From contig CAUYUJ010000155.1 of the NCBI GenBank assembly GCA_963575745.1, positions 1 through 64,000 of the forward strand: DNA of 64,000 nucleotides. Direction: 5' to 3'. The notes beneath the pieces were generated by a model. The model was not told the origin of the DNA. It saw nothing but the letters and a program-made list of their open reading frames with translations, and searched no databases. The position numbers were made by a program, and so were the translations under genes. The stretch comes from Prorocentrum cordatum. Lineage: Eukaryota. This document shows, one piece after another, positions 9,225 through 62,605 of the stretch; the first letter of the stretch is position 1; every line of letters starts with the position of its first letter.

Positions 9225-10035
9225 TCCTATGTGGTCTGCCGTGCTCCTATCTGATCTGCCGTGCTCCTCTGTGGTTTGCCGTCCTGTGTGGTCTGCCGTG
9301 CTCCTGTGATCTGCCGTGCTCTCATGTGGTCTGCCGTGCGCCTGCGACGTGCTTTGCTGTGCTCCTGTGGTGTGTCGTGCTCCTGCGTGGTCTGCCGCAT
9401 TCTGGTGATATCTGCCGTGCTCCTGCCAACTGCTGTGATCCCGTGGTCTGCCGTGTTCCTGTGGTCTACCGTATTCCTGCGTGGTCTGTTATGCTCCCGT
9501 GGCCTGCCGTCCTCTGATGATATACTGTGCTCCTCCCTGCTCCCATGGTCTGCCGTGCTCCTGTGTAATCTGCCGTGCTCCTGTGTAATCTGCCGTGGTC
9601 CGGCGGGGTCTGCCGCACTCCTGTGTTATCTGCCATGCTCCTATGACGTACCTAAGACATGTGCCGTGCTCCTGTGCGGTCTGCCGAACCATGTGGTCTG
9701 CCGTGATCCTCTGTAATATGCAATGCTCCGGTGTGGTCTGCCGTGCTCTTGTGGTCTGCCATGCTCCTGTGGTCTGCCGATCTCCTGTGGTCTGCCGTGC
9801 CCCTATGGTATGCAATGTTCCTGTGTGGTCGGCTGTACTCATGTGGTCTGCCATGCTCCTGTGGTCTGTCATGCTCCTGTGTGGTGTGCCGTGCTTCTGT
9901 GTGGTCTGCCGTGTTCCTGTGATCTGCCGTGTTCCTATGTGCTCCGTGTGTGATGTGCCGTGATGCGTCTGCTGTGCTCCTGTGCGGTCTGTCGCGCTCC
10001 TATGTGGTCAGCCGTGTTCCTGTGGTCTGCCGTGC
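9225..10035. repeat. 18-20 bp satellite (GTGCTCCTGT[GT]GGTCTGCC)n, left arm
   Basis: Tandem degenerate copies; the array continues at 13060-13355. Confidence 0.9.
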
Positions 10036-13000
10036 TTCCATGTTTCTGGTTCTGCGGGGCCTATAAAGGCTAGAGGGGCACCACTGAGGCGCCAAAGCCC
10101 GAAGCCACCACTGGGCCTGTCCCAGAGGGCCCACGAGGGCCGTCCCCGTGCAGGGCGTGCGCGGCGCAGCACGCGCGAGCCCCAGGAGGCAAAAAAAGGG
10201 CGCGGGCCGCTTCGGACCCAGCGCCACCCAAGGGCCTACTAGGGCCGTCCCCAGGAAGGGCGGAGCCCCAGGAGGCAAAAAAGGCGCGGGCCACCTCGGG
10301 CCTCGCGCCACCCCAGCAGGGCCAAGGAGCCCCAGGGGTCAGGGAGCACAGTCGGCGCGTAGCGGTAGAAACAGCACATCAACGACTCACTCACAGGACA
10401 GAGAGCGGCGCCGCGGACTCCCCAGGCGGGGCACACGCGGCCGCTCAGTCACTATCTCCAACGTCGTCGCGGGGCCGCTTCCTCCGCCTCCTCTCAGCTC
10501 GGGTAGCCTCGCCCACCTCCGCCCAGCTCTGCAGCGCCGCTTCGTCCAGGCGTACGCGTCGAGCCAGGCCTGCCGCGAGCTGGCTGCGTGCCCGCTCGCG
10601 CCTGCAGCGGGCGCCGCACTCGCCGCAGGGGCGGCGGCGGCCGCGCCAGGGCAGCCCGCAGGCCCACCAGCCCCAGCAGGCTCGCCGCCCTTGAGGCAAG
10701 GGGGGCGGATCCCGAGCCAGCCCAGTAAGCGGATCTTGGCATCCGAGGGGACCGACGCCTCCTTACGAAGACGGGGGGCCTCCGACTCCTTGGCCCGCTT
10801 GTTCCCGCTGTGGGCCTTGCCAGCAGGATGCAGGCCACGCGCCCACGGGGACTTCTGATTATTCATGGCCTTGGGCAGGCCAGCCGAGCCAGGACAGCGG
10901 CCCTCGAGCTTGGGCCTCACACCCGCCCTGCCACCGAGCCTAGCGCGGGCGCCGCAGTTGGCGCAGGCCACCAGCTCCAGCTCCTCGTCTGCCGCGCCAC
11001 ATCTGGCGCAGGAGAGGGAGTGGCCAGCGACGGAGAAAGCCACCGCTCCGAGGGCAACCCCGCTAGCGCTTGCAGCCGAGGCCCAGGCTGCCTCCATGCC
11101 AGCGCCGCTTGCAGCACCTCCACCTGGGTGCCGCTGGCGGCCCAGCTGCCCCTCCGCGGGCCCAGCGAAGGAGACGCTCCGCCTCTCGCTCGCCCCAGGA
11201 AGACCCCGGCAGTCCTTGGCCTCGATGCCCTGCCAGATGAGGGGGGCCTGCGCAATCCAGCGGGTGAGCTCCAGCATCACCTCCATCGTGCCGAAAAAAC
11301 TCCCTCCTCGCGATGGCGCTGCACCTGTGGAGGTGCGCGCTAGCCTTGGCCCAGTAGTCCGCGCGGGAGTTGCCCCGCCAGACAGCCTCCGAGATCCTGC
11401 CCTCGCGGACGCCCCGACACTGCAGTGGGCCGCCACCTTCGCGACCGTGAGCACGTCGAGGCCGAGCGATGCATGGATGGCCGACCGGAGGTGCGCGTTC
11501 GGCTTGCCCATCGCCGTCGCGCACCTGCGGCCGAGCTTGAGACAGCTGACGGTGGAGGCGCAGTCGATGCAAAGCTCCTCCACGTTGGGCCCAGCGAAGC
11601 GACTCAGCATCCAGACCGAAGTCCTCGCCGTCCTTGGCCGTCTGGAACGGGCAGAGGTCCATGCGAACGGCGCCGTAGACCGCTGTCTCCAGGTTGGCGT
11701 CCGCGTCGCACTGCACGATGCCCCAGCGCGCTCGGCGGAGGCTCTCGTGCTCGGGGTCAAGGGCTGACCCGTCCAGGAAGAGGCGGCCTCGCAGAAGCCC
11801 GCCCTCAAGTCTATTGACCCACATCACAACCATGTCGTCCGTGCGCCGAGCAGCACAGGGGGGGGGGGCAGGACAACCAGGCACACGCGAAGTTCTCGCC
11901 CGACGCCTCACTGCGGCCCCTGGCCCGACGGGCGCACCTCCGTAGACGATCCGGGACCGAGTCGCGGCGCGCCCCGTCGAAGACAGGGCACTCAAGGAGC
12001 CTGTGCCAGAGGTTGCCGCGCGCAGCTCCACAGGCGCAGCACCGAGGGCGACCCCGCTCGCCAGCGGCGCGCAGGCGGGTCTGCGACCAGCGCGCGTTGG
12101 AGAGGTAGCTCACGACTGCTACTTTCTCCCGCACATCTAACCTGCTGCGAGGGCCGAGAACCTCCGCGAGCGCCCCCCAAAACAACGGCATCGGAGGGGC
12201 AGCTCCGTGCCCCAGGCGCGCCAGCTCAGACCTGTCGGAGGCGCTGCGCGCCCCCGCCGCCGCCAAGAGTCCGAGCTCACGGGGCCCATGAGGAGGAGGG
12301 CCATGGAGTTGCCGTCCTCGGAGAGCAGGTGGCGGCCGTCGATCCCCCAGCCGATCCTGGCCAGGGAGAGGATCAGCGCGTCCACTGGCGTGCAGCAATG
12401 CGCCCACGGCGCCGCGGCGCTGGCGCGCCTCCTGACAGCCTCAGCCTGGCAGACCTCAAACACCCGAAGGGGCACCTCGCCTGTCCGCAGGAGGCTGGTC
12501 GCCAACTGGACTGCCTGGCGCACCAAGGCAGGGCTGGGGTCGAGGTCGCAGGACCTCGGGACCTCCGCCGCCCTGAGCCTCAGCCCGAGCGAAGCACCTT
12601 TCGGCACCTTCCCAGCGGACCTGGCAGCAGCAAGGCGCCAGGCATGCAGCTCTCCGTCTGGCACTCCCGCGACGGCCCGTCCCCGCAGCATTGCCGCCGT
12701 CGGGCCCGCGCGGTGCACCACGACAACAAGCGCCCCTGTCGACTGCAGGACACGCAGCCGCCTGGCACGGCGGCACGGCGCACCCACAGCCGAGACACGT
12801 GGTGCGCCAGTCCCAGTTCCATCCACCGCAGCTGCACATCCAGTAGGACCTGCTGCGCCTGCCACTGCTGCCGCCTCGCGAGGGGCGCGCCATGGCCACA
12901 GCAGCGCAGGCCGACAGGCCGCGCCCCCGCGCCGCGAAGACGGGGAGCACAACGCTGAAGTGCACTGGCTCAAAGCGCGGAGACCCTCGCGCTCGAAGCG

Positions 13001-13058
13001 CCGCGGACGACTCGCGGTCGTCGGGTGCTCCGTGGCCTTGAGCCAAAATGGCTACGGA
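10036..13058 (-). mobile_element. Internally deleted, non-autonomous RNase-H-type LINE headed by DinoSL
   Basis: DinoSL at 13058-13037. ATG 12893 gives MARPSRGG..YWMCSCGGWNWDWRTTCLGCG (RanBP2-like finger), fused to post-RT sequence (RRARRLRVLQ..VHRAG). Then CCACG..LWHRLLEC and RNase H (LFLDGS..QTAKDGED..IDC..KVAAH..GNSRADYWAK), with several frameshifts. No APE or RT motifs. Satellite lies on both sides. Confidence 0.88.
13037..13058 (-). other. Dinoflagellate spliced leader (DinoSL), perfect 22-mer
   Basis: Plus-strand CTTGAGCCAAAATGGCTACGGA is the reverse complement of TCCGTAGCCATTTTGGCTCAAG. Confidence 0.97.
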
Positions 13059-13059
13059 T

Positions 13060-13355
13060 TGCTCCTGTGTGGTCAGCCGTGCTCCTGCGTGGTCTGCCGT
13101 GCTACTGTTTGGATTGCCATGCTCCTGTGTGGTCAGCCGTGCTCCTGTGTGGTCTGCCGTGCTCCCCTGTGGTCTGCCGTGCTCCTGCGCGGTCGGCCGT
13201 GCTACAATAGTATGCAGTGTTCCTGTGGTATGCCGTGCACCTTTTTGGTATGCCGCGCTCCTGTGTGGTCTGTCGTGCTCCTGCGCTTCGCCGTGATCAT
13301 ATGGTATGCCGTGCTCTTGTGATCTGCCGTGCTCCTATGCTATGCCGCGCTCCTG
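13060..13355. repeat. Same 18-20 bp satellite, right arm
   Basis: GCTCCTGTGTGGTCAGCCGTGCTCC repeats directly abut the DinoSL. Confidence 0.9.
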
Positions 13356-42968: not shown

Positions 42969-43739
42969 GAACACGGAGCACGGATGAGGGAGCAGGGAGC
43001 TGGAAGTAAAGAGGAGCAAGTGAGGGGGGAGCAGGGAGCAGGGAGAAGGGCTCTGGACAGTCCAGTGCAGGTGCGTCGCTGCTGCGCTTGATCCAGCACC
43101 GTCTGCTCTCTCCCTGCCGAACCCGACCCGATCGACCCTTCCCCAATCGCCTCCTCCTCCCCCTCCTCTGGCATCCTCTTCCTCCCCCTCAACTGCATCA
43201 TCCCTCTGTTCGGGGACAGCCGAGTGGGACCCCACCACCATCACCTCGTCTGGGTGCGCGTGGCCCTCGACTCCGCTGGACCTTCCAGGAGCCCACGAAC
43301 AGTTGGACAGTGCGCAGCAACCCAGGGAGCAGCGAGGTCTCAAGTGGGCCCGTTTACTCCCCGACTCCGCCGTGCCTCCCGCGAGCCCACGAAAAGGGCG
43401 ACAATTGCACAGTTCGCAGCCACCCAGGGAGCAGCGAGGTCTCTCGGTGCCGAGCCGCGCCGCGCGGGCCCCCGAGCCTCGGCATGCGTGCACCTCGGGC
43501 CGTGCTGGCGAGACCGGACGCGGGCGTGGCTCCTGCCTGGGCGTGGCGCGGAGTCCAGTTACCGAATTGCGCACAGGGAGCGGCACTCACATGTGACTGC
43601 TGGTGCTGTTGCTGCTTCGTCCCCGAAAAGGCGACCTCCTCCTCCTCCTGACCTCCTCCTCATCCTCCTCCTCCTCCTCCTCCTCCTCCTCCTCCTCCTC
43701 CTCCTCCTCCTCCTCCTCCTCCTCCTGCTCCGTTTCCTC

Positions 43740-43761
43740 TCCGTAGCCATTTTGGCTCAAG
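43740..43761 (+). other. Dinoflagellate spliced leader (DinoSL), perfect 22-mer
   Basis: TCCGTAGCCATTTTGGCTCAAG matches the DCCGTAGCCATTTTGGCTCAAG consensus. It is followed by GG, not the GT donor of an SL RNA gene. Confidence 0.97.
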
Positions 43762-43916
43762 GGCTTTGTCTTGGCGGGCTGAGCCCGCATAGGCAGAAAC
43801 GGACACCGCTGACACCGCGGCAGTGCGAGGGCGCTTGCGCCCGATCAGTTTCTTTGCAGTGCTGGTTCGCCCCAGCAACTGCTTCTCCACGGGGCTCGGA
43901 GTTCCCGAGCCATCCC

Positions 43917-44990
43917 ATGTCTTCGAAGGCGGCGAAGCGGCGGCAGAATGAGAGTGAGAACTGGGTCTGTCGTTTCTGCGTCCACGCTGTCACGAAGAAG
44001 CCCTGGTTCAACAAAGCAGGGGTCATGTACTGTCGCCAGTGCAGCCTGCACACGTCCGAGTGCTAGCATGAGAACTTAAGCCGACGGGTTCTCCAGATTC
44101 GAACTCGGTCTGCCGCTCGATGCCAGTGTTGCGGCAGCTTAAGAGGCAGTAGACAGCTAAAGCAGCAAGGGTATCTTTCTGATTCGTTACTGGGAAACCT
44201 ACTAATGGGCTTGTGATGCTAAGGCAGTGAGACAAGAGCAGCCGGGATTAAGTCAGGACGTCTCATCAAGCAAGAGGCGAGTGGAGGCTTTCCAGGACGA
44301 GGAGTGTCAGCCGTTACGAGAAGGAGTCAGCCCCTCGAGACGGCCTTGTTTGCTGACAGACCTGTTGAGGAGCAGGCTCGCAGTTTGGCAAACCGGCTTC
44401 AAAGTGCTCGGCATAAGGAAACGCAGCTGCAGAAGGCCCGCGATGAGCAGCAGAGCAAGATCAGCGAGCTCCAGAAGGTCTTGGAGAGCCTCGACACGCG
44501 TTTGGTTGAGGCCAAGGAGGAGGTCCTGCGGCTTGAATGTGAGACGAGGGCAACCATGTCCAAGGCTCAGCCACCCGACGGCAGTGGGGAAGGGCCTCCT
44601 TCGTTGCGGCAAATGCTCCCCACGCTCTCTGTGTCGGTCGAGCAGCTGGGGGTGGTCGCTTCTGGGCTGGGGGTTCCTCCAGACCTCTGGGAAGAGCTGC
44701 AGGCGATGGCGGCCACGATCAAGAAGCTCGCCGAACTCCCTGCAGCGCAGCCACCCACCCCAGAGCCACAGCAGCAACCGCAGACGCCCGTGGAGCCCGA
44801 GGAGGACCCCGAGGAGGACCCTGCGCCACATGTTGAGTCCATGGACGTGGATGATCTGCGGGATACTCTGGATGCAGCAGGGATACCTGCGCAACCCTCG
44901 GATGACGCCGAGGTGCTGCGTGGCAAGATCAGGAAGATGCAGACGAGCTACCTCTCCATGTGCAAGCGGCAAAAGCCGTCGGCCGAGTAG
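43917..44990 (+). pseudogene. LINE ORF1 (N-terminal Cys zinc finger plus coiled coil), interrupted
   Basis: ATG at 43917 gives MSSKAAKRRQNESENWVCRFC..WFN..YCRQC, with a stop at 44064-44066. After a ~240 bp disrupted patch, the frame 44304-44990 encodes a heptad-rich coiled coil (LQKARDEQQSKISELQKVLESLDTRLVEAKEEVLRLE). Confidence 0.7.
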
Positions 44991-45021
44991 GTTCTCGCTT
45001 GTGTTCAATGTGCTCAGTGTG

Positions 45022-48000
45022 ATGGTTGGAAGTGTTAGTGGAATGATGGTTGTTTCGGAAAGTGCAGGACCTTCCCCGCGAATGGAAGGAATATGGGGCT
45101 CGAGTGGCGACCGCTGTGTACTCGGAAGCGCTGGACCTGTTGTTGGGATGACTGGCACTGGTGATTGCGTGGAGGAGGCCAGCGGGAGCCCTTTCTCATT
45201 GAGTCGATGTGCTATTTCAGATGATGGTTCTAATTTTGCAGGGTTGGGACCTGCTTCTGTCCCATTGGCTTATGTGAATGCTGGTAGGTGGAGTACAAGG
45301 GCTTCCACCAGTCTTTTGTCTGCCCCTGGTAGTGGGCCAGGTGCTGGGGCTTCGGCGTCGGCCTCCTGTTCAGGGACAGCGTTGAGTTCGGCGACTCGGC
45401 AGTTCTATGCATTGGGAGCAGTTCTGGGTCCTGCCATCGTCCCTTCGCTAATGGAGGGCGACCGCTGTGCTCTCGGAAGCGCTGGACCTGTTGTCGGGCT
45501 GACTGGCGCAGGTGATTGCGTGAATGAGGCCAGTGGAAGCCCTCCCTCAGGGAAGGCTTTTATTCGGAGTACTACGGCTTCCACCAGTCTCTTGTCTGCC
45601 CCTGGTAGTGGGCCAGGTTCTGGGGCTTCGGCGTCGGCTTCATGTACCAGGACAGCGGCGAGTTCGGCGACTCGGCATTTCTCTGCATCTGGTGCTTTTC
45701 TGGAATCGACCTTCGTCCCTTCGCTTATGGAGGGCGGCCGCTGTGTTCTCGGAAGCGCTGGACCTGTTGTCGGGCTGACTGGCGCAGGTGATTGCGTGAA
45801 TGAGGCCAGTGGAAGCCCTCCCCCAGGGAAGGCTAGTATGCGGGGAACTACGGCTACCACCAGTCTCTTGTCTGCCCCTGGTAGCGGGCCAAGGGCTTGG
45901 GCTTCGGCGTCGGCCTCCTGTTCCAGGTCAGCGGCGGGTTCGGCGACGCGGCATTTCTCTGCCCCTGGTGGTGGGCCAAGTGCTGGCAGTTCGGCGTCAA
46001 GGTCAGCTGTTTCAGGAGGTTGGGGGCAGCCCGCGGTCATTGCCCCAAACGATGCGGCTGATGGTCCACCTCTCACTGGTACGAGGTCGGCTAAACGTTG
46101 CTGCATCACGACAGTCAATGCTGGCTCGCATGGGCCGCTGTTTGAGTATCTCTCGGAGTACCAGGGCTCGGTTCTCTTGGCGCAGGAGACCAGAGTCGTG
46201 GAGGCCCGTTTAGGAGAATTCCAGAATAGGGCGAGGGATGCAGGCTGGCACGGGCTGTGGTCAGCAGCGTTAGAGACGGGCGAGTCGGCCATGTCCAACT
46301 CGAGTGGGGTGGTGGTCTTTGCTCGCACCAACATCGCCATCACCGCCCCCCCTGACGGCAGCCATGTGATATATCCTGGAAGAGCGGTATGCGCCCACGT
46401 GCAATGTGGGGTCCCAGGTGGCATTGTCTTTGCTAGCGTTTACTTTGTGACGGCGATTGGCATGACTGGAGAAAATCTTGCTATACTTTGGGCAGTTGTG
46501 CAGAGGATTGCTCAGTGGCAGGCTCTGGGACTGGACTGGGTGATAGGCGGAGATTGGAATTGCGACTTCTATGCCGTCAATGTCAAAGGTTGGGTCGAGA
46601 AGCTTGCAGGCCTGGCGTTTGTTCCGTCGGAGGCCACGTGCATTACCGACGCTGGTTCGTCCAAGATTGATTATTTTCTGGCCGCCAGCAACTTGGTTCC
46701 AAGACTCGACAGGCAGGCGGTGGTGATGAATGCCCAAGCCACCATTCCACCTCCACATTTTCCCGTGCAGCTGGTGGTCCATGGGTCGGACAGGCCCATG
46801 TGGTGTCGAGTTGCTGATGAACCGAGGAAGTTTCCCCCGATCCCACCAGTAGGATGTGCGAGGTACCCTTACAACTGGGACGGGATCAAAGGCATGCTTG
46901 AGTCGGTGAAGGCGCCCAGTGACTTACCGCGTGTGTGGGATGCAGTACTTGATGGCGTTGATTTTGAGATCGCTGGGAGATTTGACAAAGTCGATGGTAA
47001 GGCCCAGGAATTCGTTGGACGAGCTGGACCCCCGAGATTCAAATGGGAACAAACGACATGGACTCCACCTCGAAAGCGAGAATATCGAGACTCCAGGGTA
47101 GCTGCGTGGGCCACGGCAAAGCGTTGGGTGGCCCACTTGCGGTCGGAGAAGGATAAGCTGCACCGTTTCTGTGAGCGGCTCCGAATATGCAGTGCGGTGT
47201 GCACGTTAACCGAGATGCAGTACTTCAAGGTGCTGCAGGCGTTCGACGAGGCTGGGAGATATTGTGTCAAGATTTCTGCTGAGCAGTGGGTGCTCAAGGA
47301 TTTGGGTGAGGAGTTCAGTGAATTTCTGCAAAAAGGGTTGGTGATGATTGTCGATCCAAACTTTGAGAGTATCACTGATGCCATTTCCGCCCAGGCCGAC
47401 AAGGTTTTAGGCCAGGAGCGTTCTAGAACGGAAAAGATTTGGAGAGAATGGGCTCGTGAGTCTTTCTTGGAAGGGGCCACTCGGGCCCATGCGATGTCCA
47501 AAGTCCGAGCACAAGCTGAAGTACTCCAATATTGTCAGGAGTCGCAGCCATACCAGCTTGCTGACCAGACTTTGCGGCAGTGGTCCAAGGTATGGACGCA
47601 CCATCGGCTTCAAGCGCCTGATCTTCCCTCGGATTCCAGTGAGTGGGACGCTCTTCCCCATATCTCTTTTACTGATGTAAGGAATGTCGTGAGGTCCTTT
47701 TCGACCAAGACAGCTGCTGGCCCTACGAGGTTGGCGCCGAGGAGTCTGGACGTCCTGTCCGACGGCGCGCTCCAAGCTATTGGCAACCTTTTCATGTTAT
47801 GTGAACGGTGGTTGTGCTGGCCAGCAGATCGAATATACAGCGAACTCGTGCGACTGCCGAAACCCGATGGCGATCACCGATTAATTGTTCTGAGTAACAC
47901 ACTGATACGTGTATGGGGGAAACTCAGGCGACCGATTTCGAGGGAATGGCAAGATAGATATGCCTGCCATGAGATGTGGGGCACGAAATCGGGGCAGACT

Positions 48001-48771
48001 TCGAGCGATTCGGCATTCGACCACAATTTGCAGCAGGAGATTGCCGAGTTGCTAGGGGAGAACACATGCACGATTCTTTTGGATATGTCCAAGTGCTACG
48101 AGATGGTAGACCCTCACGCTTTGTTGCGAGAAGGGAGAGCCTTGGGGTTCTCTATGCGATTGCTGTGGATGCTCGTGTGCAGTTACCAGCAGCCGCGAAG
48201 GATTCGCGCGTTTGGTAGCGTATCGGTTGGGCAGGTATCTTACCAAGGAATTTTGGCGGGTTGCACGCATGCTACTTTCCTCCTCTACCTGCTCACGTAC
48301 AGGGCTGTCAGTAGAGCAAACCAGGTCTCGGTCACGGTTACGCCCCGCACCCTCATGGATGATGTCGGGCTCCAGTCCATCTCGAAGGCCCCTGAGGACC
48401 TCAAGTATCTGGCCATTGCGGCCAAGGGCTTCGTCCACGATTCCAAGGGGCTGGGTATGGTTTTAAATGCTGCGAAGTCAGGCGGGATCCCTGGGAAAAA
48501 ACGTCTCTGGAAGACCGTCAGTAAGTACATGGGCTCCATGAATATCCCGTTCAAGGCCCACATGAGGAACTTAGGCCACGAGTTGTCAGGACCTCGAGTT
48601 TTGCGTAGGATCGAGAAGCGTCGCCTGACCAGTTTTAGAGATCGCCGCCAGCGTTTCACCAAGCTGCGAAGGGCGACAGGCAGGCGAGTGACATCGTTGT
48701 GGAGGACTGGGGCCCTGCCGTCATTGGCCAGGCGCCACTGTGAGGCACTCCAGAGCGACAAGGCTAATTGA
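45022..48771 (+). CDS. LINE ORF2 part 1: Ser/Gly/Ala-rich repeats, APE (EEP-fold) endonuclease, reverse transcriptase
   Basis: APE motifs: TVNAG, LAQETR, SSGVVVF, ASVYF, VIGGDWN, SKIDYF, PPHFPV. RT motifs: KTAAGPT, LPKPDGDHRLI, LLDMSKCYEMV, GILAGC, TLMDD, AKS. First Met after the ORF1 stop is at 45022, in frame with the 44227..48771 ORF. Confidence 0.92.
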   Translation: MVGSVSGMMVVSESAGPSPRMEGIWGSSGDRCVLGSAGPVVGMTGTGDCVEEASGSPFSLSRCAISDDGSNFAGLGPASVPLAYVNAGRWSTRASTSLLSAPGSGPGAGASASASCSGTALSSATRQFYALGAVLGPAIVPSLMEGDRCALGSAGPVVGLTGAGDCVNEASGSPPSGKAFIRSTTASTSLLSAPGSGPGSGASASASCTRTAASSATRHFSASGAFLESTFVPSLMEGGRCVLGSAGPVVGLTGAGDCVNEASGSPPPGKASMRGTTATTSLLSAPGSGPRAWASASASCSRSAAGSATRHFSAPGGGPSAGSSASRSAVSGGWGQPAVIAPNDAADGPPLTGTRSAKRCCITTVNAGSHGPLFEYLSEYQGSVLLAQETRVVEARLGEFQNRARDAGWHGLWSAALETGESAMSNSSGVVVFARTNIAITAPPDGSHVIYPGRAVCAHVQCGVPGGIVFASVYFVTAIGMTGENLAILWAVVQRIAQWQALGLDWVIGGDWNCDFYAVNVKGWVEKLAGLAFVPSEATCITDAGSSKIDYFLAASNLVPRLDRQAVVMNAQATIPPPHFPVQLVVHGSDRPMWCRVADEPRKFPPIPPVGCARYPYNWDGIKGMLESVKAPSDLPRVWDAVLDGVDFEIAGRFDKVDGKAQEFVGRAGPPRFKWEQTTWTPPRKREYRDSRVAAWATAKRWVAHLRSEKDKLHRFCERLRICSAVCTLTEMQYFKVLQAFDEAGRYCVKISAEQWVLKDLGEEFSEFLQKGLVMIVDPNFESITDAISAQADKVLGQERSRTEKIWREWARESFLEGATRAHAMSKVRAQAEVLQYCQESQPYQLADQTLRQWSKVWTHHRLQAPDLPSDSSEWDALPHISFTDVRNVVRSFSTKTAAGPTRLAPRSLDVLSDGALQAIGNLFMLCERWLCWPADRIYSELVRLPKPDGDHRLIVLSNTLIRVWGKLRRPISREWQDRYACHEMWGTKSGQTSSDSAFDHNLQQEIAELLGENTCTILLDMSKCYEMVDPHALLREGRALGFSMRLLWMLVCSYQQPRRIRAFGSVSVGQVSYQGILAGCTHATFLLYLLTYRAVSRANQVSVTVTPRTLMDDVGLQSISKAPEDLKYLAIAAKGFVHDSKGLGMVLNAAKSGGIPGKKRLWKTVSKYMGSMNIPFKAHMRNLGHELSGPRVLRRIEKRRLTSFRDRRQRFTKLRRATGRRVTSLWRTGALPSLARRHCEALQSDKAN
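45106..45965 (+). repeat. Three in-frame tandem repeats inside the ORF2 N-terminus (spacings 351 and 276 bp)
   Basis: G(D/G)RCxLGSAGPVVGxTGxGDCVxEASGSP...TSLLSAPGSGP..ASASASC..SATR begins at 45106, 45457 and 45733. Confidence 0.9.
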
Positions 48772-48909
48772 AGCAGTCAGGCAGATTCGTGCGGTCCTCA
48801 CTGGGGCTCTGAGATCCACACGAGGCTCCGGCGTACTTGCTCTCTGACCAAAGCGGACAGTATGACCCATATACCATGGGACGTGTGCGGTTTTGATTAA
48901 GTATTCGGA

Positions 48910-50865
48910 ATGGAATTGGGACACCACACATGGGACCGAGCATGTCCAGGGCTGGGAGAAGCTTCAACGAGAAGTTTCGGGGGTTGTGCAGAAGGCTTGT
49001 GGGCAGGCCAGGGGATGGCGGCCATGGTGTCGCTTCGAAGGATCTCTTGGGACCTTGTCGCCAGCCACGTTGTTAGGGACGACCTAGGCCGAGTCTACGA
49101 CCTCAGGACGCTGAGCCCAGCAGATTTCAAGCACTTCTTGACCGAGGGAGTGCAGAGGTGGCAACACGGCCGCCTCTTGCGGCATCTTTATACTGTGGGT
49201 GACGGAGTAGCTATTCCAGTCTGGCACAGGGCCCTCAGGTATGCGATAAAAGGGATTCGATGCGTGAAGCGTCTTGGAGCGATTCAGGCACACTGGGCCG
49301 ACGGTATCCCTATACCTGCCAGGCTGGATTTGAAGGCTGGAGGCCGATTCCGTCCCTGCGCAGCTTGTGGTCGCCAGATCAACGAATGCTGGGGACACAT
49401 TCTGTACGATTGCCCTGCTCTCTTGGTGGGCGTCCCCGATGATGAATTTGCTGCCCTGCCTGAACAGCTCGTCGAAGTGCGAGATCGCCTGGTGAATTCT
49501 GGAGTCGGGGCAGGTCGCCCCGAATGGGACTACACATACCCTGTCTATGGGATCCCTGAGCTTCCTGTCGGGCTACCTCCGAGAGATTCTGTGAGTTCTG
49601 AAGTTTTGTACTGGGGCGATACCGAAGGGCAATGGGGGCCAAAGTCGTACACGGACGGTTCGGGGTTCGGGTCGAATGTGCCAGAAACCAGGAGGTGTGG
49701 CTGGGGCCTATGCCAGTTGGACCCCGACACTTTCTTGCCGAAGCGGGCGATTTTCGGACCATTGCCGTATCTAATCCAGACAGTCGGTCGTGCTGAAAGA
49801 TATGCTATACGAATGGGGCTGGTTGTTCATCCAAACCACGAGGTTTTCGTGAGCGATTTACTCTCTTTGGTGGAGGAGGGGAATGCTTGGTTGGACGAAC
49901 TTCAGCACGGCCGAAAGCAGCATGCACGTGTGTGGCGAGATATTTTTATTGCAGCTGAGAGGCGGGACAAGAAGCTGCCGCCTCCAGCATTCCAGTGGAC
50001 CCCTGCGCATCGAGACATCGAAGCTGTGGTGTCGAGCGGGGCTGGTACTACGGAAATTCAAGATTGGCTCGGCAATGCCTGGGCGGATTTTTTCGCAAGA
50101 GTTGGCGCTGCTCAACATGCTGTCGCAAAGGTGACGACTGAGAGCGTGGCGTCCGCCCTGAAAGAGCACCGACTGGTTCTTCAGTATGTGTCCTGGGGAA
50201 TCCAGATGGTGGTGGAGTCTCAGAAGTACGGACGAGATGTGTTTCCAGGGCCCCGTCCAGTTGAGATTCGTGCGCCTGTGCTCTTTCAAAAAGCGGATGA
50301 TCATGTATTGTACAAGAACGTCAAGACGGGCGTTTTCAAGTGTAGAAGGTGCGGGGCCTCAGCCCGCACGCCTGCATCCTTCGACAATCTGCGTGTGGGT
50401 GGGGGTCGGAAGTGTGTGCCCAGCAAGATCACCCAGGCCCTCACAAAAGAGTTCTTCAGGACGTCCCTCGACGTGTGGGAGATGCCAGTGAGTGATGCGC
50501 GCGTGGCCGCTGCCCTCGATGCCGCTGCCGCCTTAGAGCCCCAAGGAGCCCCCGAGGAGGCCGAAGGAGGCCCCTCCCAGCCACCTGTGCTCGACGGGGC
50601 CTCTAGGGAGGATGCGGACCCCCTCATCCTGGAGTGTGGGGCTCTAGGGCACGATGTGTTCCGTGTTAATTCAATGTATTGCTGCCGTCGTTGTGCAGGG
50701 CATTGTTCAGTGTTGCAGGTTAATAGTCTCAGGAAGCTGAAGCGTGAGTGTGTAGGCCTCTCTGACACCCTCAGCACTCGGAGGAACCAGCTCAGGGCGA
50801 TCGACAGGATCAGCCGTGGGCTCGAGCCACGTCAGCGAGGAGGGGACCCCGAGCCCCCGCCGTAG
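48910..50865 (+). CDS. LINE ORF2 part 2 (after frameshifts): CCHC-like finger, RNase H, C-terminal Cys/His fingers
   Basis: CAACG..GHILYDC; RNase H motifs YTDGSG..CGWG..QTVGRAE..FVSDL..WTPAH..GNAWADFFA; C-terminal H..CRRCG..C and GH..CRRCA..C. Frame continuity with part 1 is broken in 48730-49010. Confidence 0.88.
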   Translation: MELGHHTWDRACPGLGEASTRSFGGCAEGLWAGQGMAAMVSLRRISWDLVASHVVRDDLGRVYDLRTLSPADFKHFLTEGVQRWQHGRLLRHLYTVGDGVAIPVWHRALRYAIKGIRCVKRLGAIQAHWADGIPIPARLDLKAGGRFRPCAACGRQINECWGHILYDCPALLVGVPDDEFAALPEQLVEVRDRLVNSGVGAGRPEWDYTYPVYGIPELPVGLPPRDSVSSEVLYWGDTEGQWGPKSYTDGSGFGSNVPETRRCGWGLCQLDPDTFLPKRAIFGPLPYLIQTVGRAERYAIRMGLVVHPNHEVFVSDLLSLVEEGNAWLDELQHGRKQHARVWRDIFIAAERRDKKLPPPAFQWTPAHRDIEAVVSSGAGTTEIQDWLGNAWADFFARVGAAQHAVAKVTTESVASALKEHRLVLQYVSWGIQMVVESQKYGRDVFPGPRPVEIRAPVLFQKADDHVLYKNVKTGVFKCRRCGASARTPASFDNLRVGGGRKCVPSKITQALTKEFFRTSLDVWEMPVSDARVAAALDAAAALEPQGAPEEAEGGPSQPPVLDGASREDADPLILECGALGHDVFRVNSMYCCRRCAGHCSVLQVNSLRKLKRECVGLSDTLSTRRNQLRAIDRISRGLEPRQRGGDPEPPP

Positions 50866-50891
50866 GCTGTTTTTGGTCTGGGCCCCCAGGT

Positions 50892-50991
50892 NNNNNNNNN
50901 NNNNNNNNNNNNNNNNNNNNNNNNNNNNNNNNNNNNNNNNNNNNNNNNNNNNNNNNNNNNNNNNNNNNNNNNNNNNNNNNNNNNNNNNNNN
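50892..50991. other. Assembly gap (100 N)
   Basis: Run of N. Confidence 1.
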
Positions 50992-51048
50992 TCCTCCTCC
51001 TCCTCCTCCTCCTATCCCTTGCCCTGACGGTCCGCGGAACCAGCGCAG

Positions 51049-62605
<11,557 letters not shown>

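What the first reader, a model, noticed from the sequence alone, without database searches (positions are those of the whole stretch)
43740..50891. Full-length LINE capped by a perfect dinoflagellate spliced leader
Seen: the element's 5' boundary coincides to the base with a complete 22-nt DinoSL, followed by a 155-nt UTR, ORF1 and APE-RT-RNase H. Established: DinoSL is normally added to mRNAs by trans-splicing, and genomic SL copies mark retroposed mRNAs. Other LINEs define their 5' end with internal promoters or HDV-like ribozymes, while NeSL and SLACS/CRE insert into SL RNA genes. Here there is no SL RNA gene context (no GT donor after the SL; the flank is (CCT)n). Inference: the LINE RNA is itself trans-spliced and copied back in full. 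The integrated SL contains two AG dinucleotides (CCGTAG, TCAAG) that could act as trans-splice acceptors. The element could then regenerate a precise capped 5' end from read-through transcripts without its own promoter. I am not aware of this being characterised as a LINE life-cycle strategy, but I could not check the literature.
Basis: partly seen in the sequence, partly recalled or inferred. Interest (0 to 1): 0.9.

Follow-up and report, generated by a model that had tools for sequence, protein, structure and literature searches.

The report
Dinoflagellate LINE starting with spliced leader
A jumping gene (LINE) in a dinoflagellate genome begins exactly with the 22-base leader that these algae splice onto their messenger RNAs, so its RNA was very probably processed like a host message and copied back whole; this is expected but seems not to have been described for LINEs.

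Summary
A perfect 22-nt DinoSL lies at 43740-43761. A 155-nt leader follows, then an ORF1 (zinc finger plus coiled coil) and an endonuclease-RT-zinc finger-RNase H polyprotein. "Full-length" cannot be shown: 50891 is the edge of a 100-N assembly gap, and this copy has three stops in ORF1 and two in ORF2.

- **Second case.** An unrelated 3-kb LINE derivative at 10040-13058 (minus strand) also starts with a perfect SL.
- **Independent reads.** Short-read contigs from two runs carry the same SL-to-leader join. They begin 3 and 7 letters before the second SL base, as expected if the repeat unit starts at the SL.
- **Context.** Flanks are simple repeats, not an SL RNA gene, and no ribozyme was found.

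Best reading (0.75): the LINE RNA is trans-spliced and reverse-transcribed to its 5' end. Whether the genomic SL is reused as an acceptor, the "strategy", is untested; no RNA data were available. My literature searches found only indirect hints. Verdict: a new variant of a known kind, of moderate interest.

The parts
43635..43731 (.). Upstream flank: (CCT)n microsatellite, 31.7 units, followed by 8 degenerate bases up to the SL
43740..43761 (+). Complete 22-nt dinoflagellate spliced leader (first base T); first bases of the element
   Evidence: read contigs X1 record 1 and X2 record 7 align from 43741 onward without a break
43762..43916 (+). 155-nt 5' untranslated leader
   Evidence: no Rfam family, so no HDV-like ribozyme
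43917..44990 (+). ORF1 frame: N-terminal CxxC...CxxC finger (43917-44063), then a coiled-coil-like part. In this copy it is cut by stops at 44064, 44214 and 44220
   Evidence: residues from 44223-44987 match P0001 aa 1341-1539 at E=2e-43, and also P0012, P0004 and P0003
44065..44331 (+). Patch 1, where the window differs from contigs of X1, X2 and X3. 195 nt are replaced there by 207 other letters, followed by seven small indels with a net gain of 6 nt
   Evidence: tables 4 and 5
45276..45970 (+). 276-nt tandem repeat x2.5 in the stretch between ORF1 and the endonuclease. It has no homologue among the 157 family proteins
46138..46698 (+). Apurinic-type endonuclease domain (Exo_endo_phos)
   Evidence: E=1.1e-3, under the cut-off; ExoIII 6lpm, E=0.0059; family profile to ExoIII at 2.4e-4; 15 of 24 relatives at Pfam E<=1e-3
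47857..48480 (+). Reverse transcriptase domain
   Evidence: RVT_1, E=6.7e-6; family profile to R2 at 3.6e-6 and L1 ORF2p at 5.5e-5; 14 of 24 relatives at Pfam E<=1e-3
48724..49027 (+). Patch 2, where the window differs from the read contigs (304 nt against 319 other letters). It holds the two in-frame stops at 48769 and 48898 that split the polyprotein
49366..49413 (+). C-x2-C...H-x4-C finger behind the RT (zf-RVT-like)
   Evidence: C153, H163 and C168 are nearly invariant; zf-RVT found in 3 of 24 relatives
49648..50130 (+). RNase H domain
   Evidence: BLASTP to the Pfam RNase_H stretch of P0097 at E=2.9e-10; profile to MLV/XMRV RNase H at 6e-8; D249, E296, D316, H367 and D393 conserved
50131..50865 (+). 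C-terminal part of the polyprotein with further CxxC motifs; stop codon at 50863-50865
50892..50991 (.). 100-N assembly gap that hides the element's 3' end
   Evidence: read contigs continue at least 144-146 nt into it
50992..51014 (.). (TCC)n directly behind the gap: the same microsatellite as upstream, so the element appears to sit inside one (CCT)n tract
10040..13058 (-). Second SL-headed element, about 3 kb. In order: perfect SL (13037-13058), 143-nt leader, ATG at 12893 with a RanBP2-like finger motif, then frameshifted zf-RVT-like (12065-11979) and RNase-H-like (11779-11672) pieces. No endonuclease or RT core and no poly(A)
   Evidence: (zf-RVT E=0.018)
9240..10035 (.). 20-nt minisatellite (GGAGCACGGCAGACCACACA-like) downstream of the second element. 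The same repeat lies upstream at 13059-13340

Best explanation
The element is one copy of a young, multi-copy dinoflagellate non-LTR retrotransposon. ORF1 has a zinc finger and a coiled coil; ORF2 is endonuclease-RT-zinc finger-RNase H.

Its RNA, like other nuclear messages of dinoflagellates, received the 22-nt spliced leader by trans-splicing. Target-primed reverse transcription then ran to the very 5' end of that RNA, so the new DNA copy begins with the leader.

Shown here: the DNA anatomy, the join in independent reads, the lack of SL-gene context, and a second independent case. Inferred: the trans-splicing itself, and the reverse transcription of a capped full-length RNA.
For: - **SL at the head.** A perfect SL lies exactly at the head of the element, followed by GG and not a GT donor.
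- **Flanks.** (CCT)n lies before the element and (TCC)n behind the gap. The second element lies inside one 20-nt minisatellite. Neither shows SL intron or Sm-site sequence, unlike the 29 SL RNA genes sorted from the metagenome sample.
- **Independent assemblies.** X1 record 1 (1780 nt) and X2 record 7 (1815 nt) align from 43741 to 44064 with 3 other letters and no gap. They start 3 and 7 letters before 43741. A third, variant 51-nt contig starts 2 letters before 43742.
- **A repeat family.** All four runs share one consensus that differs from the window at about 0.5% of sites. Versions 91-96% alike also exist, for example X1 record 5 and X4 records 23 and 27.
- **Two separate acquisitions.** The two SL-headed elements share only the 22 SL bases.
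- **A genuine LINE family.** The search found 3469 cluster representatives at E<=1e-3, and the profile hits RNase H, R2, L1 ORF2p and ExoIII.
- **No other 5'-end device found.** No Rfam family, and so no HDV-like ribozyme, matched the window.
Against: - No RNA evidence: none of the listed runs is on record as RNA.
- The join between the (CCT)n flank and the SL is not bridged by any contig, because the tool skipped the microsatellite.
- The 3' end is in a gap, so neither a target duplication nor a tail can be shown for this copy.
- No other copy's upstream flank could be read: no genome is held, and a 24-mer from the leader found 0 metagenome contigs.
- None of 126 metagenome loci holding a DinoSL carries a relative of this family. 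None of 95 ORFs downstream of such leaders has an RT domain. Most of those loci are too short to reach one.
- A preprint on Symbiodinium saw no overlap between genes with leader relicts and RT genes (passages).
Confidence: 0.75

Rival explanations
1. The leader is inherited as DNA and is not added anew each cycle. An ancestor captured an SL once, and an internal promoter now starts transcription at the first SL base, as LINE internal promoters do at their first base.
For: There is a single SL with no stacked relic behind it, in both elements and in the read consensus. Song et al. 2017 propose that the TTTT/TTTG motif of the leader acts as a promoter element (abstract passage).
Against: The two elements are unalignable outside the SL, yet both keep 22 of 22 bases. 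A variant contig differs just behind the SL (43763, 43766), though the places of its 3 other letters were not listed. This is easier to explain by re-templating from the SL RNA, although selection on the motif could do the same.
Confidence: 0.12
2. A chimeric retrocopy: during reverse transcription the enzyme switched template from the LINE RNA to an SL RNA or another SL-bearing RNA, as in the U6-L1 chimeras of mammals (recalled, from no call).
For: Template switching is a known property of LINE reverse transcriptases (established knowledge, not tested here).
Against: A switch to the SL donor RNA would also copy its intron part, and only the 22-nt exon is present. The same join recurs in contigs of two runs and in a variant contig, and a second family shows the same exact exon boundary.
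Confidence: 0.05
3. A site-specific LINE that inserts into SL RNA genes, as NeSL-1, SLACS, CRE and CZAR do, so that the SL is target DNA rather than part of the element.
For: An SL sits directly against a LINE, which is also what those elements show.
Against: There is no SL gene context: (CCT)n lies upstream, (TCC)n lies behind the gap, and the second element is embedded in one minisatellite. No Rfam RNA gene was found in the window. The element has an apurinic-type endonuclease, whereas those families are recalled to carry a restriction-like one.
Confidence: 0.02
4. An assembly artefact: the SL was joined to the LINE by a mis-assembly next to a microsatellite and a gap.
For: The locus has a gap and two patches that disagree with the contigs covering them.
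Against: The SL-to-leader join is present in contigs assembled independently from two other runs. A second SL-headed element lies 30 kb away.
Confidence: 0.03

Closest known systems
[quoted passage not shown] 2017, PMC5585692, passages; PMC12014239, passages)
   Same: A genomic copy of the leader sits directly 5' of a transcribed unit, without donor site or SL intron. It is taken as the mark of reverse transcription of a trans-spliced RNA. The AG inside a relic leader is the known acceptor for the next round.
   Different: Here the retrocopied RNA is that of the retrotransposon itself, with its own endonuclease and RT, not a host message copied in trans. There is no stacked relic, and no poly(A) in the element whose 3' end is visible.
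SymbioLINE elements of Symbiodinium (de Mendoza et al. 2018, PMC5890265, passages)
   Same: Dinoflagellate LINEs with Exo_endo_phos, RVT_1 and RNase_H in ORF2, conserved 5' and 3' untranslated regions, target duplications and no poly(A) tail.
   Different: Their ORF1 encodes a DNA methyltransferase; here it is a zinc finger plus coiled coil. The paper's main text holds no 'spliced leader' or 'DinoSL'. Relatedness of the RTs was not tested.
SL-gene-specific LINEs (NeSL-1, SLACS, CRE, CZAR; recalled, not read here)
   Same: A LINE physically joined to spliced-leader sequence. SLACS RNA is recalled to start within the SL because it uses the SL gene's promoter.
   Different: Those insert into SL RNA genes and split the exon. 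Here the whole exon heads the element and the flanks are simple repeats.
SL-containing retrotransposons of Schistosoma mansoni (Boroni et al. 2018, PMC5832876, passages)
   Same: [quoted passage not shown]
   Different: It is a passing remark, with assembly chimeras named as the alternative. No element anatomy or exact 5' boundary is given, and the organism and leader are different.
Other LINE solutions for the 5' end: the Pr77 internal promoter of L1Tc/ingi (PMC1874656, abstract in the search listing) and HDV-like ribozymes of R2 and others (recalled)
   Same: All define a precise 5' end for a promoter-poor element.
   Different: Pr77 gives unspliced transcripts. No ribozyme family matched here. 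Here the 5' end would be defined by the host's trans-splicing machinery.
Viruses of dinoflagellates that carry the leader (dinoRNAV transcripts, as cited in PMC9651163, passages)
   Same: A genetic parasite whose RNA bears the host's leader.
   Different: An RNA virus, not a retrotransposon. How it acquires the leader is unknown.

Membership tests
Apurinic-endonuclease-type non-LTR retrotransposon (LINE) | Reverse transcriptase of the LINE / group II intron type | tested here: met
   RVT_1 E=6.7e-6 (26.4 bits, cut-off 29.6). The family profile hits R2 at 3.6e-6, L1 ORF2p at 5.5e-5 and a group II intron RT at 1.4e-4.
Apurinic-endonuclease-type non-LTR retrotransposon (LINE) | N-terminal apurinic-type endonuclease in the same polyprotein | tested here: met
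   Exo_endo_phos E=1.1e-3 alone; ExoIII E=0.0059; profile 2.4e-4. Relatives P0002, P0033 and P0067 score above Pfam's cut-off.
Apurinic-endonuclease-type non-LTR retrotransposon (LINE) | Target-site duplication and a defined 3' end | tested here: inconclusive
   The 3' end lies in the N gap and the flanks are one microsatellite. The second element shows a possible 6-7-nt duplication within its minisatellite.
Apurinic-endonuclease-type non-LTR retrotransposon (LINE) | Dispersed multi-copy family | tested here: met
   All four runs give a shared consensus that differs from the window, plus contigs 91-96% alike. Copy number was not measured; the tool warns that depth is not copy number.
SymbioLINE-type dinoflagellate LINEs | Exo_endo_phos, RVT_1 and RNase_H in ORF2 | tested here: met
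SymbioLINE-type dinoflagellate LINEs | DNA methyltransferase in ORF1 | tested here: not met
   ORF1 is a finger plus coiled coil with no Pfam family.
SymbioLINE-type dinoflagellate LINEs | RT groups with SymbioLINE RTs in a tree | not tested
SL-gene-specific LINEs (NeSL / SLACS / CRE) | Insertion inside an SL RNA gene, with gene sequence on both sides | tested here: not met
   The flanks are (CCT)n and (TCC)n, and for the second element a 20-nt minisatellite. Rfam found nothing.
SL-gene-specific LINEs (NeSL / SLACS / CRE) | Restriction-enzyme-like endonuclease behind the RT (recalled feature) | tested here: not met
   The endonuclease is apurinic-type and lies N-terminal. RNase H lies behind the RT.
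DinoSL-tagged retrocopies | Leader exon in DNA, directly 5' of the unit, without GT donor or SL intron | tested here: met
   By contrast, 29 SL RNA genes in the metagenome sample have GT and a T-run.
DinoSL-tagged retrocopies | Transcripts of the unit carry a new leader in front of the relic | not testable with these tools
   No RNA run is on record.
LINEs with a 5' HDV-like ribozyme | HDV-like ribozyme fold at the 5' end | tested here: not met
   No Rfam match at E<=1 in 43400-44400, nor at gathering score in the whole window.

The most novel reading that the evidence does not exclude
The genomic leader is a working, self-renewing 5' module. Any read-through transcript across a copy is trans-spliced at the last AG of the integrated SL (CTCAAG|G). 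This restores exactly the same capped, translatable 5' end without leaving a relic, so the LINE needs no promoter of its own and does not lose its head over many cycles. That would be a further solution to the LINE 5'-end problem, beside internal promoters, ribozymes and SL-gene targeting. The same young, abundant family would then be a prime candidate for the enzyme behind the mass retroposition of dinoflagellate genes.
Probability: 0.3. Interest if true: 0.8.

Novelty: new variant of a known kind. Interest (0 to 1): 0.6.

Why it matters
Dinoflagellate genomes hold thousands of retrocopied genes marked by leader relics. The papers I read say the enzyme responsible is unknown and tend to favour LTR elements.

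A young, multi-copy LINE family whose own copies carry the same mark shows that a LINE-type machine in these cells does copy leader-capped RNAs to their very 5' end. It thus gives a concrete candidate to test.

It also raises a question about genomes in which gene-specific promoters are scarce. A retrotransposon may rely on the host's trans-splicing to obtain a defined, translatable 5' end. SL-primed or long-read cDNA could test this directly.

Tried and rejected
- **Whole genome:** none is held, so copies and their flanks could not be collected.
- **RNA:** no RNA holder is listed among 15 runs, so expression is unknown either way.
- **Leader 24-mer:** a scan of metagenome contigs for a 24-mer from the element's leader gave 0 matches.
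  - tblastn with the window's ORFs and 7 proteins, then with all 157 family proteins, gave 0 hits.
  - Pfam on 95 ORFs of 150 aa or more behind non-gene leaders gave 0 RT and one endonuclease, at L002. That contig has genes on both strands and is not a LINE.
  - Most loci have under 2 kb downstream of the leader, so this is a weak test.
- **Relatives in viral contigs:** none found.
- **Structure:** a single-sequence fold of the RNase H stretch failed, with mean pLDDT 35. I did not use it and made no fold search.
- **Names and organisms of relatives:** The only organism names seen are 'Prorocentrum cordatum', on four of the seven hits.
- **Earlier findings of this scan:** five look-ups gave nothing relevant.
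- **RT tree:** not made, for lack of reference sequences, so the LINE clade is not assigned.
- **RanBP2 finger:** a RanBP2-type reading of the ORF1 fingers rests on the motif only; Pfam gave no match.
- **Rest of the window:** a Pfam scan of 34 other long ORFs gave only low-complexity noise.
Full report
**What is there.** At 43740-43761 (+) the window reads TCCGTAGCCATTTTGGCTCAAG, the full 22-nt dinoflagellate spliced leader as given in the papers I read (DCCGTAGCCATTTTGGCTCAAG, passage). The 21-mer with up to three mismatches occurs twice in the 64 kb, against none in 100 shuffles. The 15-nt relic form with up to two mismatches occurs only at the same two places.

Upstream lies a (CCT)n microsatellite at 43635-43731, then 8 degenerate bases. 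Downstream the leader is followed by GG, not a GT donor, and by a 155-nt leader up to an ATG at 43917.

**The coding part.**
- *ORF1.* The frame opened by the ATG at 43917 gives a 49-residue CxxC...CxxC finger and then a stop at 44064. The same frame continues, with two more stops at 44214 and 44220, to 44990. It there encodes a coiled-coil-like protein. This protein has clear relatives: P0001 aa 1341-1539 at E=2e-43, and also P0012, P0004 and P0003. The real ORF1 is therefore about 358 codons and is broken in this copy.
- *Polyprotein.* A second frame runs to 48771 and, after in-frame stops at 48769 and 48898, on to 50865. Alone it scores only weakly: RVT_1 6.7e-6 and Exo_endo_phos 1.1e-3, both under Pfam's cut-offs, with nothing for the last 651 residues.
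- *The last 651 residues.* They align to aa 1165-1614 of an uninterrupted 1811-residue relative (E=1e-52). Residues 247-407 align to the Pfam RNase_H stretch of P0097 (2.9e-10).
- *Family profile.* A profile of 14 members hits MLV/XMRV RNase H (6e-8), R2 RT (3.6e-6), L1 ORF2p (5.5e-5) and ExoIII (2.4e-4), in the order endonuclease, RT, RNase H. D249, E296, D316, H367 and D393 of the window's protein fall in invariant or nearly invariant columns.
- *Size of the family.* It has 3469 cluster representatives at E<=1e-3 and 167 at 1e-30. The only organism names I saw are 'Prorocentrum cordatum'.

**What is not as described.** The end coordinate 50891 is the last base before 100 N. The element is cut by an assembly gap, so 'full-length' cannot be shown. 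Behind the gap the sequence resumes with (TCC)n, so the element seems to lie inside one (CCT)n tract. Such tracts cover 4.0% of the window, and all short tandem repeats 12.4%.

**Independent reads.** Eleven of the 15 runs listed hold part of the element, and none is on record as RNA. I laid the contigs of four runs.
- They cover 43741-50891 at about 99.5% identity. They share one set of differences from the window, so the window holds one slightly mutated copy of a repeat family. Contigs 91-96% alike show older relatives.
- Two contigs, X1 record 1 and X2 record 7, run without a break from the second SL base through the leader into ORF1. They begin 3 and 7 letters before it. A short variant contig begins 2 letters before 43742.
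- In a word-graph assembly this is what one expects if many copies agree from the SL onward and differ upstream. It is not proof, because the tool skipped the microsatellite and no contig bridges flank and SL.
- Two patches of the window (44065-44331 and 48724-49027) are replaced in the contigs that cover them by other letters. The length differences are 18 and 15 nt, both multiples of three. All five stops of this copy lie in these patches. They are either private damage or local assembly errors.
- Contigs continue at least 144-146 nt beyond 50891.

**A second case in the same window.** The other SL (13037-13058, minus strand) also heads a retroelement.
- Its anatomy, in order: a 143-nt leader, an ATG at 12893 with a W-x-C-x-C...N-x6-C-x2-C finger, then frameshifted pieces. 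These pieces are collinear with the finger and RNase H parts of the first element's C-terminal protein, and with the post-RT part of P0002. Each match is weak on its own (E 0.002-0.08; zf-RVT E=0.018).
- It is about 3 kb long, has no endonuclease or RT core, and ends without poly(A). It is embedded in one 20-nt minisatellite that continues on both sides.
- Outside the 22 SL bases the two heads do not align beyond noise.
- It is best read as an internally deleted, non-autonomous relative from another family. It shows that the leader head is not a one-off.

**How it most likely works.** The simplest account is that the LINE transcript is trans-spliced like any nuclear message of these cells and that reverse transcription at the target reaches the 5' end of the RNA.
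- An SL-gene-targeting element is excluded by the flanks and by the apurinic-type endonuclease.
- A template switch to the SL donor RNA would bring intron sequence and variable joins.
- A ribozyme was not found.
- An assembly artefact is contradicted by the read contigs.

One alternative remains open: the SL may be inherited as DNA, with transcription starting at its first base.

It builds on what is known for retrogenes. One observation bears on it. Neither element, nor the read consensus, has a relic behind the SL, whereas several host retrocopies in the metagenome sample do (for example L005, L015, L054, L081 and L084). For a family that has gone through several rounds, this means one of three things:
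- re-splicing at the last AG (CAAG|G), which restores the same sequence;
- a master copy with its own acceptor;
- an internal start site.

In this copy the 97-nt pyrimidine tract directly upstream would make a good acceptor context. That may be chance.

**Literature.** I searched the full-text library six times and read passages, not whole texts, of 14 papers. I found no description of LINEs that begin with the DinoSL. The nearest statements are these:
- Song et al. 2017 report 'RNA-dependent DNA replication' enriched among genes with leader relicts and suspect retrotransposons as drivers.
- de Mendoza et al. 2018 describe SymbioLINE elements with the same ORF2 domains, conserved untranslated regions and no poly(A), without mention of a leader.
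- Boroni et al. [quoted passage not shown]
- An RNA virus of Symbiodiniaceae is reported to carry the DinoSL.

Supplements were not opened. Subscription journals are not in the library, so 'not in print' is limited to these searches.

**Verdict.** The element is a genuine, recently active LINE family. The leader head is best explained by trans-splicing of the LINE RNA. It is an expected consequence of dinoflagellate RNA biology, but it appears not to have been worked out. It names a concrete candidate for the retroposition machinery. The 'promoter-free self-renewing head' remains a hypothesis, which I put at about 0.3.

Noticed in passing
Viral-contig loci L127-L245; metagenome loci L002/L003, L017, L018, L043, L047, L061-L063, L074: The exact DinoSL 21-mer occurs in 119 stretches of IMG/VR contigs, mostly giant-virus MAGs, several with many sites each. 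Of 138 sites, 132 have A at -1 and 109 have T at -2. The 200 nt upstream are 87% A+T at the median, and only 3 sites are followed by GT. In 119 sites the first ATG (median 47 nt downstream) opens an ORF of at least 60 codons or one that runs to the flank's end. Pfam hits nearby include an NCLDV capsid, RecQ, PolX and FtsJ. This reads as giant viruses that hard-code the host leader in front of many genes. None of the 15 listed titles or abstract starts (16 papers hold the terms) is about this; the papers were not read.
   Followed up: partly
window 43405-43443: A piece of about 40 nt upstream of the element has far higher contig depth than its surroundings (about 200 in X1 and X2). It has loose ends on both sides in all four runs. 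It is a short, very abundant repeat of unknown kind.
   Followed up: no
window 44065-44331 and 48724-49027: These are two patches where the assembly disagrees with short-read contigs of the same family by many small indels: the first with contigs of X1-X3 (X4 does not cover it), the second with all four runs. The rest of the element agrees at about 99.5%. The length differences are multiples of three. They may be unpolished assembly stretches or conversion from a diverged copy.
   Followed up: partly
metagenome loci L005, L019, L054, L059, L084, L093, L096, L114, L116: Nine of 70 leader copies that are neither SL RNA genes nor AT-rich have a simple repeat directly upstream. Both elements in the window also sit in tandem repeats. 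This hints that the retroposition machinery favours simple repeats, or only that such genomes are full of them.
   Followed up: partly
window 58276-60693 (-): An open frame of 806 codons without any Pfam family. It may be another mobile element or a gene.
   Followed up: no
window 55737-56717: A 77-nt tandem repeat of at least 10 copies. The window as a whole is 12.4% short tandem repeats, and no recognisable host gene was found among 34 long ORFs.
   Followed up: no
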